64,000 nucleotides of DNA, from assembly GCA_964016885.1 (NCBI GenBank), contig OZ024743.1:17794001-17858000 (forward strand), read 5' to 3'. Positions 45,301 through 53,800 of this stretch are shown here, one piece after another. Under the pieces are notes generated by a model. It had not been told where the DNA came from, searched no databases, and was given only the letters and a program-made list of their open reading frames with translations. This DNA comes from Eledone cirrhosa (taxonomy: Eukaryota). The stretch's first letter is position 1, and every line of letters begins with the position of its first letter. Made by a program: the position numbers and the translations under genes.

Positions 45301-48300
45301 CATATATATATATATATATATATATATATATATATATATATATATATATATATATATATATATATGCATTCATAAATACATTTATATAATATATACTTAA
45401 TTGGTGGAAGCACTTTTACAGCATTTTTGGCGTCTGTATTTAAACATATATACGCTACATTTAAGGTAGCCTCACTCCCCAAGAGGAATATGTTTTTGTA
45501 ACGAAACAAACACGAAATGAATAAAACATATATAGTTTTCTAGATGTTCCTTTATGAGTATATCATAACGTAATCTGTATATTCCGGGAGTATCAGTTGA
45601 CGCATATTCAAGATTGCTTAACTGTTTATCGGGGACACTAACTCAAAATGTTATGGCATAGAATATACTATAGTATGCGTATCGCAATTTGTATGATGAT
45701 CCCCTGCTGGAGAAGCTCATTTACATATAGCGAAGAGAAAATATCGGCTGGAAGTGGTAATTTGCATATTTCGCGAGCTTGGCTGAATATATTAAATTGG
45801 CGGCAGCACGAAGACAGTGTTGAAGCATAATAGATATGTATATGACGACTAATATAAACGTACCTCATATATTTATATATGTCCAGTCGATGTATCTCGT
45901 GTACATTCAAAAGTGATGGATCACCTGCATATGAAATATTCAAACAAATGGATAATATATTTATTTACGCATTTACACGCGAAATACCTACGTCAGAATA
46001 TTACAGTCGTGTATTACCTCCTGAGTGTGGACTGAATATATTTTCTCTTTTTGTAAATACATTTGCAATTTATATTCTGACGTTAGGCTTCCCTGAATGC
46101 ATGCTAAATTATGTGACTCCACCATTACATAATGCTGATTTGAACAGGGAAAACGCGACATATTAAATATTAATATGGATACTACCTGTAGTTCCACCTT
46201 CCGTTGGTACTCGGAACCTTTTTTCCCTCGACGAACTGGTTGAAATATATATGGCTTCTTTTTCTTTATTTTTTTTTCAATAAATATACAAATTTGTAGC
46301 ACTCGTATAAAATATACAATAGAAAGTTATAAGAAAAAGAAAACAATGTGGGAAATAGCATGCGGTATTTATCTTTTCAAACTTGTTTGCAAATATTTTT
46401 CTTAAGGTTATATATTTCTTCAAACATTAACATGTTATATCTCGCTGTGAATATGTTTTCTATGCACAATAAAATATAAGGAAATACATTCAAATTCATA
46501 GGAGTGGTAAAATCAGTGACAGAATATTTATTGTATCTACGAGGAGAAATATTTGATTGAACATATATGCTATATGAGAGGAATTTGTGTGTAGAAGCGC
46601 GGGCTAGTTATATGCACTCATTCGTAGGATAATGTATTCGATTGTCTCAAATACACCCAATTTCATATCCATGTATACAGATATATACAGATATGGGAGT
46701 GTGTGGCTGTGAAACATATACATATGCATCTGGTCCGAAAAACAAAGGAACCAAATTATTTATATTGGATTTTTTTTCAGCAAGCTACTTTTTTTCCATA
46801 TTTGTTCCATTGCACAAAAAGGGGGGTTGTACCTAAGTCCAGATTTGCCACACTTTGTATCACCCTAAATAGCATTCAGAACTACGTGCCTAAGGCACCT
46901 TAATTGCACTACATATTTATTCATTCTTCGAGAAGCTTCAATTCTCATTAGCGGAACCGACGGTCGTCCAACAAATACACAGGACTAGAGAGAGGGTGTG
47001 TGAGAGAGAGAGAGAGAGTGTGTGTGAAAGAGAAAGAATTTGAGAGAGAGAGAAAGGTTGAGATAGAGAGTGTTAGAAAGAAAGAGAGAGTGAGCGAGAT
47101 GCATTTATTTTCGGAAAACTGACTATATCTATTATATGAAAAAAGGAATATATATACCTTTTAGTACGAGGATTAAAATAATAAGGTGTCGAGCAGTTTG
47201 TTGGAAATTCAATAAAGTGTCGTTTTTTTACTTAACTGTTCGATATAACGTTGTAATTTCGAAATGCTTACGTATTGGTTTGATTTTTTTTACGTTCTAA
47301 AACCTTTGCGTATATCAATCACGTAAATAGATCGAAGTACTAGACGGTGGTGTATCCTTGCATATATAATTATGCGTTTGGGATACACATGATACTTTTG
47401 ACAGTATCCAACGTGAATACGCTTCATATGGTCACAATATTCGATAGAAACACAATAATTCACCTTCAAATATAACATTCAACCTTCTAAAATTAAGCAA
47501 GGTCATGTTATAAAATATAAATTACAGTTACGAAAGAGTGTAGAGAAAGAGAGCCTGGGGAGGATTGAAGGAAGGAGAGTGAAGGGGAGGGAGAGGTTCA
47601 GGGAAGAATATAATTTGTCCATAAAAATATCTGTTAAAGCGCGATATGACTGAAAAGAAATTAATTTAGTATTTGAAAATCCATTAGCACTTTTGTCATT
47701 ATTTTTGGATTGATCAATATAATCACCGGGATTTCTATTACTCAATGACCGCTTCGATGTTTTCTAAGCGACGTTGAACAAGATATTTAAATGGCAGTGG
47801 TAAAGTCAACATACATCTATGTATTCACTGGTGTTTCTGCAAACCCTACACATTGTGATTATTGTAGAACACAGTATATTTTCCAACACGGTGATTGTAG
47901 TCCTAAATTAGTTTGTGTCTGAAAAAAAATATGATTGTCACGACTGCTGCAACACTGATTATCATCCTGTCGAAACCACAGTTTTGCTATTGGACTAAAT
48001 AACTAAAATTTCCTTGCTGAGAATCTCCGGTTTTTCGACGTTGAAATATGATTTTGTCTACTAATTTATTCCTACTGTTTCTTGGACAAGATCGAATATT
48101 GTGTCCCCTTTCTTGTCTATTCAAACCCTTGAAAATACCAATAAAATCTTTGTTGAGAAGTGAGGATGAGCGAAAGTGATAATTATCCTGTCTATTTTAT
48201 ATTTGAATTCTAAAGTCTAACAACTGTACATAATTACAACCTATAGGACAAGTGTAAATAAGTCATAAAAGAGGCACCACAGATGCCACGACAACATACC

Positions 48301-50857: not shown

Positions 50858-53800
50858 ATATATATATATATACATATGTGTATATATATATATACATATA
50901 TATATATAGCGAATTCAAGTTTCATGTGTTTATAGTCACTTCAGGATAGTATTTTCCAATGATTTTTGTCAGCTGGCAGTATGACAGAAAATATAAATAA
51001 GTTATAGTGCGAATCCTACTGTTTCTTGGACAAGATCGAATATTGTGTCCTCTTTCTCGTCTATTCAAACCCTTGCAAATACCAATAAAATCTTTGTTGA
51101 GAAGTGAGGATGAGCGAAACTGATAATTATCCTGTCTATGGTATATTTGAATTCTAAAGTCCAACAACTGTACATAATTACAACCTATAGGACAAGTGTA
51201 AATAAGTCATAAAAGAGGCACCACAGATGCCACGACAACATACCATCTAAGACTGTGTTAAAATTTGTACTTACGATATACGCATATAATATTAAGTATA
51301 TAAGTTACTACGTAATATAGAAATAATTTCGAATATAATTCGTAATAAAGAAGTAATAGGTAATTCACTGATCACAAATGACAGTGGATAGTAATGACTA
51401 TACATGTTGTTTAAATGAAGACAACATCGTGTTTAATATACCCAAGGGAAAATGAGAACCTCTCTATGTGGCGTTATATGTTTGTCAGTGTACCGAGGAC
51501 ACGCAGACTGCAAGTTATTGTTTTTTCAGATCTATAAGGAACGTAATCTCATGTAATTAATAGCAGAAAAACAACGACAAACGCAACGCAATCTCTCTCT
51601 CTCTCTCTCTCTCTCTATCTCTCTCTCTCACCTCTCTCTCCCTCTCTCACTCGCTCTCCGTCTCTCTCTCTACCTCCCTCTCTCTCTCTCCCTCTCTCTC
51701 TCACTCTCTCTCTCTCTCTCTCTCTCTCTCTCTGTATCTGTCTCAATACATGTATGTTCTGTTCCTCCAATCTCCCAGTAAAACGAAGTTAGATAGACAG
51801 GGCAGTAGAGAGTCACATGCACACACACTCACACACACACATACACACACACATCAACACGCATTTATATATATATATATATATATATATATATATATAG
51901 CGAATTCAAGATTCATGTGTTTATAGTCACTTTAGGATAGTATTTTCCAATGATTTTTGTCAGCTGGCAGTATGACAGAAAATATAAATAAGTTATAGTG
52001 CGAATTTTATCAAATTTAGATGTATCTATCTAATCAATAAGCAATTATGAGAGATCATTTTTATAAATGTTATGTGTAAATCGAATATTTACATGGTTCC
52101 AATATAGATATTGAAATATCACAACTACAGGCTCATAACGCACTTTAACATATTAATACCTGGACCATTAAAGATATATCTATAAATCTGTCTGTAAAAT
52201 TGCTCGTTTACGAAAGTAAATACATATACACGCACACACAGACACAAACACTGACACATACACACACACCCGCACACACACACACACACACACACACACA
52301 CACACATATATATATATATATATATATATATGTGTGTGTGTGTATATATAGATTTACTACTGCACCGTTTGCGATTTACTTTTGAATGAAACCTGTTATT
52401 TTTATTGTCTATCTACCGTGGCGTAGATCGAATATTGCAGAATTCAAAATTGATCTTTATCTGGGAAAAATGCACTGATAATAATTTCCTAAGATTGAAG
52501 TTCATGCCCTTTGATTGATTCAGCTTATGCTTCCATCAGAAAAAAAAGATAGGTGATGTTTAACTTTACATCTCATCGATTATCTTAATCGTTATTTTCC
52601 GTAACTCGTGCAACAAATATCTAGTATCTCACTCTAAAATCATCTGACATTCTGCAATCAACAAGAAAGCTGCCCACTGACATGTGAAAGATCACAGATA
52701 CCTTTTTACGCTTATATGCGATATCACAAAGGTTATTTTATGTGCCGCATTTTGGTACTTCTTTAACTCTTGAATGAGTTTGACCACTAAATGCAAGGTT
52801 ATAGCACGTTATCTATTGTATTTTCACTGTTGCATGGTTTGTCCCATTCCTGTGAACATGTGATTTGCTGCCATGAAAATATTGATTGGATATGCCTTCT
52901 AACGTATAGGTTCAGAAATGTAAAAATATACATATGCATATCACGTCCATATAAAATGATCCTAACAAACATGGAATTATGCTGATCGGTATTCGTAAGA
53001 ATATACCGAGAAGACTTTTCTTCAAGAAAAACTAATGATACGTATACCACTTGCATGAAAATACCGCAAAAGCTGCCAAAAGTTTGAGAAAGTAATTTGA
53101 CATATATTAGTGAATCCATAAGCCCTATTTTAGCATAAGTTTAATGTTGATGGACGCTGCACAAAGTCGCTTTGTTTAGATGCCACATTGAAAACATTCT
53201 CATAAATTTATAGTCTCATATGGAGTGCTTAACATAGGCTTAAACCTGTAACATACCAATACCCATGTAACAGTCTCGGTAAATATGAAAAGAAAAAAAT
53301 ATTAAGTGTAAGCCAATTTTGACTAGTTTATAAATGCGAAAGATATTCCTCTACAATTTCACTTTATCCATGGTCGATAATAATACAGATCTATCTCGCT
53401 CAGCCCAAATACATTTGAATAATATTGTCTTAAAAAAAGTGTGTGAGCGCACGTGAGTATATTTCTTGGTGCCTGTATGTGTGTGCTACTGGTGGGATTT
53501 GTATGGTGTTGAATTAGTGATCATTAAGACGGTGAGTATGTTTTCGGTATATGCATCTATTGCATCCACAGCATTCCTCTGACAGGGATCAATGCTTTGA
53601 GTGACCTTAAATATGCATACTATATATTTCACAATCTTACCGACATATTTTCGCCAATGTCAGTTCCCTAGTCAATGAGTATCTCAGTAATGGTAATGCG
53701 AATTTTATTTCCCGCTTTCCAACCAATAAAACAAACATTTAATCCATCCACTGTACGTTATGTTTGACATTTGTTAACTTTACCTTACATGTACGAGTTT

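What the first reader, a model, noticed from the sequence alone, without database searches (positions are those of the whole stretch)
48070..52005. Filled versus empty (TA)n site: about seven HHR-type modules stacked in one copy of a duplication
In the second copy, A' and B' are joined by ~34 bp of (TA)n. In the first copy the same site holds ~1.9 kb made of modules each separated by (TA)n: 48961-49206 (degenerate long-helix HHR), 49252-49393 (family B), 49417-49590 (HHR), 49647-49710 (fragment), 49750-49892 (family B), 50010-50232 (U3-A8 HHR) and 50249-50857 (family A hairpin). This is internal evidence that one TA tract acts as a landing pad for several ribozyme-bearing families. Alternatively, the stack was excised from copy 2 by TA-TA recombination.
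Basis: partly seen in the sequence, partly recalled or inferred. Interest (0 to 1): 0.75.

Follow-up and report, generated by a model that had tools for sequence, protein, structure and literature searches.

The report
Ribozyme retroelement stack erased without scar
Seven pieces of likely Penelope-type jumping genes are piled in a TA repeat in one copy of a small duplication, and because three of them look older than the duplication, the 'empty' second copy likely lost the pile cleanly rather than never having had it.

Summary
The anatomy is real. A local tandem duplication (48070-51014 / 51014-52005) differs at 18 of 770 non-repeat sites (2.3%; 1.2% per copy). Copy 1 holds seven (TA)n-separated modules from five repeated families; copy 2 holds (TA)17. 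Four families join Penelope-like (PLE) ORFs at other loci, so they are likely PLE ends. All five carry a type I hammerhead in longer copies, but only 2 of 7 modules here keep a complete one. Modules m1, m3 and m4 carry 5.3%, 5.4% and 12.7% private changes, well above 1.2% (pooled P=2e-8), and m1's variant has no sibling in the genome. The four younger modules cannot be dated against the duplication. The landing-pad idea holds on other evidence: 113 of 203 related loci have TA-linked neighbours. PLE targeting of (TA)n, hammerheads in PLE ends and microsatellite-linked TE arrays (plant SaTars) are published, and this scan already noted such stacks on other DNA of this genome. New here is only the dated, likely en-bloc loss, at one locus with no outgroup.

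The parts
48070..48933 (+). A: left part of duplication unit 1 (unique 48070-48648 and 48788-48872, with CT/TA and CA microsatellites)
48934..48960 (.). left boundary (TA)n tract of the stack, interrupted once
48961..49206 (+). m1, family F1: pLTR-like end of a Hydra-type PLE; long-helix-II hammerhead with mutated core (CCGTCGA for CCGACGA); 5.3% private changes
49252..49393 (+). m2, family B: truncated PLE end holding only the 3' half of a U3-A8 hammerhead; 1.4% private changes (4.3% from the majority)
49417..49594 (+). m3, family F3: core CTGACGA...GAAACTAGTA intact, helix I lost through an internal rearrangement; 5.4% private changes; no ORF link found
49647..49710 (+). m4: 5' fragment of an F1-related subfamily, cut where 0 of 29 relatives meet TA; 12.7% private changes
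49750..49892 (+). m5, family B subfamily with fixed inverted head; hammerhead 3' half on the minus strand; 3.5% private changes
50010..50232 (-). m6, family F6: complete U3-A8 minimal type I hammerhead at 50185-50156 with palindromic helix III; 2.3% private changes
50249..50857 (.). m7, family A/F7: 58-nt tail plus inverted pair of the 3' end of a Neptune-like PLE; complete hammerheads at 50511-50477 (-) and 50649-50683 (+); 1.5% private changes
50854..50908 (.). right boundary (TA)n tract, interrupted; five more TA tracts separate the modules (49206-49251, 49392-49417, 49595-49647, 49708-49752, 49890-50010) and a short one lies at 50233-50249
50909..51014 (+). B: right part of unit 1; the tandem junction at 51014 has 1 nt of microhomology
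51014..51865 (+). A': left part of unit 2
51866..51899 (.). pure (TA)17: the 'empty' site, likely the fusion product of the two boundary tracts
   Evidence: origin inferred
51900..52005 (+). B': right part of unit 2

Best explanation
A 1.9-kb stack of seven repeat modules, likely the truncated ends of Penelope-like retroelements, was likely built one insertion at a time in a (TA)n tract, and was likely deleted from one copy of a later tandem duplication by joining of its two outer TA tracts. Shown: the anatomy, the dispersed families, their fixed ends at TA, their hammerheads, the ORF links and the divergence values. Inferred: (1) a PLE GIY-YIG endonuclease nicks (TA)n and the RT primes at a TA-matching point of the RNA end; (2) each insertion leaves TA on both sides, which regrows by slippage and renews the target, so unrelated families queue side by side; (3) the locus was duplicated in tandem; (4) at or after that event, or on the allele that gave copy 2, TA-to-TA annealing (single-strand annealing, microhomology joining or a template switch) removed everything between the outer tracts and left plain (TA)n. 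The old core (m1, m3, m4) must have been lost this way; m2, m5, m6 and m7 may have been lost with it or added to copy 1 afterwards. The stack is most likely inert debris.
For: Duplication: 18 of 770 sites differ, 1.2% per copy. Private changes (alleles shared by at most 2 of the 29 nearest fetched copies): m1 13/245, m3 6/112, m4 8/63; one-sided P = 1e-4, 0.0045, 5e-6; pooled 27/420, P=2e-8, and still 6e-6 when a 221-nt identical tract of A is dropped. A 39-nt stretch with 5 of m1's private alleles has 1 match in the genome at up to 2 mismatches, itself. The oldest modules sit in the middle and carry secondary damage: m4 ends where 0 of 29 relatives meet TA and m3 is internally rearranged. Fixed ends meet TA in 27/29 (m1), 25/29 (m2), 28 and 29/29 (m5), 29/29 (m6), 28 and 26/29 (m7). 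ORF links: F7 follows a GIY-YIG ORF at window 28638-29557, L195 and L171; F1 runs into an ATG about 40 nt on at L060, and the TA-facing end falls at a TAT of the element; family B follows a PLE-like ORF end at L087 and has a full U3-A8 motif there; F6 follows a GIY-YIG ORF at L023. Stacks are common and unordered: 113 of 203 loci have at least one TA-linked repeat neighbour, 28 of 203 form chains of four or more; 23 different ordered pairs at 27 loci.
Against: No outgroup or second individual covers the site (no relatives held; run X4 has no depth there), so the direction is inferred from dating only. The four younger modules are not older than the duplication at significance (21/1103, P=0.09; m2 1.4%, m7 1.5%). 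Dating assumes equal substitution rates in modules and flanks and that the 29 nearest copies represent the source; m4 (best relative 86%, only 67 candidates) may come from an unsampled subfamily. A 221-nt stretch of A/A' is identical, which hints at some gene conversion. Links for F1, family B and F6 rest on one locus each; the F6 gap contains an 18-nt TA run; F3 has no link. The chain count has no shuffled control and counts any repeat matched by two other loci.
Confidence: 0.7

Rival explanations
1. Block arrival: copy 2 is the ancestral empty site, and a ready-made old stack entered copy 1 after the duplication, copied from another locus during repair of a break at (TA)n or re-integrated as a circle excised by TA-TA recombination.
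For: Explains old modules in a young duplication. Circular intermediates recombining into microsatellites were proposed, as speculation, for SaTars (PMC5907723, passage). Stacks are abundant as donors.
Against: No donor in the assembly: m1's private stretch is unique, and the best matches of the seven modules lie at different loci (the one shared locus, L062/L141, has the reverse order and 91%/79% identity). Only a cut-and-move event or a lost donor survives this.
Confidence: 0.1
2. Old duplication made to look young: the duplication predates all insertions, copy 2 was never filled, and gene conversion erased the A/A' and B/B' differences.
For: 221 identical bases inside A; adjacent tandem copies can convert each other (general knowledge).
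Against: About 10-25% pairwise divergence would have to be erased on both sides of a 1.9-kb heterology and up to both breakpoints; the three measured segments differ by 12/579, 4/85 and 2/106, with no diverged remnant.
Confidence: 0.1
3. One reading: all seven modules inserted one by one into copy 1 after the duplication.
For: m2, m6 and m7 are compatible with the age of the duplication; copy 2's tract is a pure (TA)17.
Against: m1, m3 and m4 are too diverged, have no near-identical source and m3 and m4 carry secondary damage.
Confidence: 0.06
4. Assembly artefact: a filled and an empty haplotype were concatenated.
For: 2.3% is a plausible allelic distance (general knowledge); the junction records fall 1-2 letters short of the tool's 31-letter bridging rule and are absent from X1.
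Against: X2 and X3 each hold a 59-nt record at 50985-51043 across the junction, the shape expected between two collapsed repeats, at depth 5 and 9 against 5.1 and 6.4 for the unique flank. These runs are one sample, possibly the assembled one. Even if true, the empty allele would still be the derived one by the dating.
Confidence: 0.04

Closest known systems
SaTar arrays of guayule, rice, sorghum and citrus (Valdes Franco et al. 2018, PMC5907723; abstract and 12 passages read)
   Same: Unrelated short elements in non-nested linear arrays linked by (TA)n; internal deletions inside clusters; filled versus empty TA sites between rice subspecies.
   Different: SaTars are non-autonomous MULE DNA transposons in plants; these are PLE retroelement ends with hammerheads in an animal. 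The rice empty sites are read as pre-insertion; here dating points to loss.
Hydra and Neptune clades of Penelope-like elements (Craig et al. 2021, PMC8557442; 12 passages and section 11 read)
   Same: Insertion into (TA)n, hammerheads near the 3' end, inverted 5'-truncated partner plus a one-sided tail (m7), DKT and CxCx5C (F1 partner type) or Cx2-5CxxC linker (F7, F6 partners).
   Different: The passages read do not describe multi-family stacks or their removal. Only short ends are present here; m5 and m7 recur as fixed-length units.
[quoted passage not shown]
   Same: U3-A8 core, palindromic short helix III, extra base after position 9, pairs of motifs 100-700 nt apart on opposite strands, mostly solo truncated copies.
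   Different: F1 and family B have a much longer helix II; F1 has C at position 4; five of seven modules here are broken.
Animal non-LTR retrozymes (Li et al. 2026, 10.64898/2026.07.22.740005; part 1 of 5 read)
   Same: Short non-coding hammerhead elements tied to PLEs.
   Different: Defined there as tandem repeats with a hammerhead in each unit; this stack is of mixed families and orientations split by TA.
Precise TE removal by recombination between target-site duplications (stated as extremely rare for Alu in PMC5402677, 5 passages read; it cites van de Lagemaat 2005, not read)
   Same: Scarless loss between short identical flanks that restores an apparent empty site.
   Different: Here the flanks are long (TA)n tracts that renew themselves and are break-prone in other systems (PMC13645644, 12 passages), and several elements go at once.

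Membership tests
Penelope-like element ends (EN+ PLE) | Continuous with an ORF ending in a GIY-YIG endonuclease | tested here: met
   F7: L195 PF01541 E=1.2e-4 at cutoff, longest TA in the gap 6 nt; also window 28638-29557 and L171. F6: L023 PF01541 E=5.2e-6, one locus. Family B: L087, by tblastn to PLE ORFs, not scanned with Pfam. F1: upstream of the ORF at L060. Met for 4 of 5 families; F3 not linked.
Penelope-like element ends (EN+ PLE) | PLE-type reverse transcriptase in the partner ORF | tested here: inconclusive
   Pfam RVT_1 did not hit the partner-type ORFs; a YRDD motif is visible in window ORF 23914-26055. No RT phylogeny was run.
Penelope-like element ends (EN+ PLE) | pLTR with type I hammerhead | tested here: met
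   Complete motif in 29/29 F7, 25/29 F6, 15/29 F3, 6/29 F1, 8/29 F1-related copies; family B 0/29 and 0/29 by that descriptor, but a U3-A8 long-helix motif is seen by eye in longer copies L084 and L087, damaged in L071.
Penelope-like element ends (EN+ PLE) | Inverted 5'-truncated partner and one-sided tail | tested here: met
   m7: 58-nt tail plus inverted arms; 20 of 29 family B copies have an inverted head; F6 inverted partners.
Hydra clade | DKT motif and CxCx5C linker | tested here: met
   DKT in the L060 ORF; CxCx5C in related ORFs at window 23914-26055, L135, L084. The two motifs were seen in different copies.
Hydra clade | Phylogenetic placement of RT/EN | not tested
   No reference sequences were fetched.
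Neptune/Nematis-type PLE | Cx2-5CxxC finger upstream of a C-terminal GIY-YIG | tested here: met
   L195, L130, L014, L023 ORFs. Neptune versus Nematis not resolved.
Active hammerhead ribozyme | Self-cleavage of the RNA | not testable with these tools
   Motif and fold only.
Active hammerhead ribozyme | Complete core and three helices in the window copy | tested here: not met
   Met by m6 and m7 only; not by m1-m5. A looser scan gave m3 an alternative pairing through its rearranged part.
Non-LTR retrozyme | Tandem units each with a complete hammerhead | tested here: not met
   No tandem repeat other than microsatellites in the stack; modules are of different families.
SaTar arrays | Non-nested mixed-family array linked by microsatellites | tested here: met
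SaTar arrays | Elements are MULEs with terminal inverted repeats | tested here: not met
   Elements link to PLE ORFs and carry hammerheads; inverted parts vary in length between copies.
Type-SGC permuted hammerhead (PMC10085705, 12 passages) | S, G and C blocks in non-circular order within family B | tested here: not met
   A C-block pattern occurs in 2 of 29 and 0 of 29 matched bodies; longer copies show the ordinary type I order.

The most novel reading that the evidence does not exclude
TA-bounded retroelement stacks are self-erasing cassettes: the same (TA)n that attracts Penelope-like insertions lets whole multi-element stacks drop out without a scar, often enough to set the turnover of these elements genome-wide, so many plain (TA)n tracts are emptied sites; in the extreme form the excised circles re-enter other TA tracts and move old stacks as blocks.
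Probability: 0.25. Interest if true: 0.6.

Novelty: new member of a known kind. Interest (0 to 1): 0.32.

Why it matters
Filled/empty pairs are normally read as insertion events, and precise loss of retroelements is held to be very rare. Here the empty site is likely the derived state. If this is common for (TA)n-targeting elements, presence/absence calls at such sites mislead, and microsatellite targeting comes with a built-in removal route that would shape repeat load in large invertebrate genomes. As it stands it is one locus, dated indirectly; the insertion side of the story is published and was already noted many times in this genome.

Tried and rejected
Rfam: 0 matches in the window, so no family support for the hammerheads. 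A first strict motif scan missed m7's motifs and gave m3 a doubtful pairing; replaced. A first chain count split modules at internal TA runs and inflated the numbers; replaced, which scores the window stack 6 because m1 merges with the flank. A search for modules nested in an internal TA run of an older element, which would show a true pre-insertion state, gave 70 rows, part of the output cut; the rows seen were mostly family B's own fold-back or low-complexity matches, with one unclear candidate (L065), so it is inconclusive. RAD-seq run X4 has no depth on the site. No related genomes are held. Family B as a permuted hammerhead: rejected. The stack as one composite mobile element: rejected, since neighbours and orders differ across loci and best matches are at separate loci. 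Self-matches (7 loci) and the 2 A loci were dropped before all counts; 29 copies per module were analysed, out of 40 scored and 67-3850 first-look candidates each.
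Full report
Observation. The region is a tandem duplication: unit 1 is 48070-51014 and unit 2 is 51014-52005. The unique part of A has two matches in the 3.0-Gb assembly, both here. Outside microsatellites the copies differ at 12/579, 4/85 and 2/106 sites, 18 of 770 in all (2.3%, 95% interval 1.4-3.7%), or 1.2% per copy. The junction has 1 nt of microhomology. In 2 of 3 contig sets from one sample (X2, X3) a 59-nt record crosses it, at a depth close to that of the unique flank; it is 1-2 letters short of the tool's bridging rule and the sample may be the assembled one. 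Between A and B, unit 1 has seven modules separated by TA tracts; between A' and B', unit 2 has a pure (TA)17.

What the modules are. Each module matches dispersed copies (first-look candidates: m1 2766, m2 2374, m3 1550, m4 67, m5 2384, m6 1154, m7 3850; not copy numbers). I analysed the 29 best fetched non-self loci for each. They fall into five families: F1 (m1, and m4 as a fragment of a related subfamily), family B (m2, m5), F3 (m3), F6 (m6) and family A/F7 (m7). Fixed ends meet (TA)n in 25-29 of 29 copies for m1, m2, m5, m6 and m7; the window ends of m3 and m4 are shared by 4 and 0 of 29. F7 lies about 140-150 nt past the stop of a GIY-YIG ORF in this window (28638-29557, minus strand) and at L195 and L171; that ORF type has a Cx4CxxC linker. 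F1 runs into an ATG about 40 nt downstream at L060, and the end that elsewhere faces TA falls on a TAT of the element; that ORF has the DKT motif and related ORFs have CxCx5C, the Hydra marks of Craig et al. 2021. Family B follows a PLE-like ORF end by 749 nt at L087, F6 follows a GIY-YIG ORF at L023 across a gap with an 18-nt TA run, and F3 has no link. Pfam did not detect the RT in these ORFs.

Hammerheads. A relaxed type I descriptor gives 6 hits in the window against 0-1 in 20 shuffles; three lie in the stack, one in m6 (U3-A8, 50185-50156) and two in m7. Family copies keep a complete motif in 29/29 (F7), 25/29 (F6), 15/29 (F3), 6/29 (F1) and 8/29 (F1-related). Family B short copies hold only the 3' half; longer copies show a U3-A8 core with a long helix II. 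So all five families are hammerhead-bearing, but 5 of 7 modules here are broken. These features match the minimal PLE hammerheads of Cervera and de la Pena 2014. Activity was not tested.

Dating. Against the majority of the 29 nearest copies, the window modules differ by m4 8/63, m3 9/112, m1 16/245, m2 6/140, m5 5/143, m6 5/219 and m7 11/601. Counting only alleles shared by at most two relatives gives 8, 6, 13, 2, 5, 5 and 9. Against 1.2% per copy, m1, m3 and m4 are older (P = 1e-4, 0.0045, 5e-6; pooled 2e-8; 6e-6 after dropping a 221-nt identical tract of A), m5 is borderline (0.04), and m2, m6 and m7 are not distinguishable; the four younger modules pooled give P=0.09. A 39-nt stretch with five private m1 alleles has no second match in the genome at two mismatches, so no near-identical source or donor is assembled. 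The oldest pieces lie in the middle and are further damaged. Caveats: equal rates are assumed, the nearest-copy sample may miss subfamilies (mainly m4), and some conversion between A and A' is possible.

Mechanism. Inferred: PLE endonucleases nick (TA)n; the RT copies a 5'-truncated, often folded-back RNA end; TA remains on both sides and regrows; later elements use the renewed tracts. This fits the other loci: 113 of 203 have a TA-linked repeat neighbour within 1.5 kb, 28 form chains of four or more, 3 reach six (no shuffled control), and neighbours come in many orders (23 ordered pairs at 27 loci). Seven is the upper tail of a common pattern. Since at least three modules predate the duplication, copy 2 likely lost them by joining of the outer TA tracts, leaving an apparently untouched microsatellite. 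Whether this happened during the duplication, after it, or on the donor allele cannot be told. The rivals are block arrival of an old stack, an old duplication masked by conversion, all-new insertion, and an assembly artefact; none is excluded without an outgroup, and none is favoured.

Comparison and novelty. (TA)n targeting by Naiad, Neptune and Hydra PLEs and the inverted-copy-plus-tail structure are in PMC8557442. Mixed, non-nested arrays linked by (TA)n, with internal deletions and filled/empty sites, are described for plant MULEs in PMC5907723. Precise removal through flanking repeats is known and called extremely rare for Alu (PMC5402677); TA repeats are break and deletion hotspots in human cells (PMC13645644). 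Eight searches, judged from listings and the passages named, showed no paper on multi-family PLE stacks in (TA)n or their en-bloc loss; three passages of an octopus repeat annotation (PMC13282606) do not mention hammerheads. Supplements were not read; those of PMC8557442 may hold these families. Earlier notes of this scan describe the same stacks on other DNA of this genome, none near this window; they are unchecked and gave me the Hydra lead, which I tested by motifs only. Verdict: a new member of a known kind, with one useful twist, the likely derived empty site.

Noticed in passing
window 2457-2711 and 4164-4417: 99.2% identical inverted pair, each with a complete U3-A8 hammerhead (2550 minus, 4324 plus), flanking about 1.45 kb: a young inverted PLE-like insertion of another family.
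   Followed up: no
window 23914-26055 (-): 714-aa open frame of a Hydra-type PLE (YRDD, CxCx5C, weak GIY-YIG hit), next to (TA)36 at 26184; a further hammerhead at 22183 (-) may belong to its 3' end.
   Followed up: partly
window 28620-29700 (-): Decayed 3' part of a Neptune-like PLE ending in family A/F7 and (TA)n; the link that identifies m7.
   Followed up: yes
window 4651-4790, 7165-7910, 11123-11461: Further family A and B copies in smaller TA-linked stacks.
   Followed up: partly
window 48414-48635 versus 51359-51579: About 221 nt identical between the duplicate copies where about five differences are expected; conversion tract or constraint.
   Followed up: partly
m5 and m7 families (L094-L122, L154-L182): Rearranged forms of fixed length (143 and about 609 nt) recur at many loci, so the fold-back products may themselves be copied as non-autonomous elements or arise at fixed switch points.
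   Followed up: no
window 31988-42407, 54465-56114, 14845-16845: LINE-type RT and zf-RVT ORFs in large repeated blocks, flanked by (TTA)n tracts at 32659, 37719 and 42317.
   Followed up: no
window 18154-18530 and 19316-19488: Short local duplications (99% and 97%) around a SINE-like repeat and a pure (TA)114 at 18628-18855.
   Followed up: no
L188 1608-1990 and L191 932-1416: F1-related copies interrupted at the same point by related 381- and 483-nt inserts ending in a hairpin and CTAG/CTAGA, Helitron-like by recalled motif.
   Followed up: no
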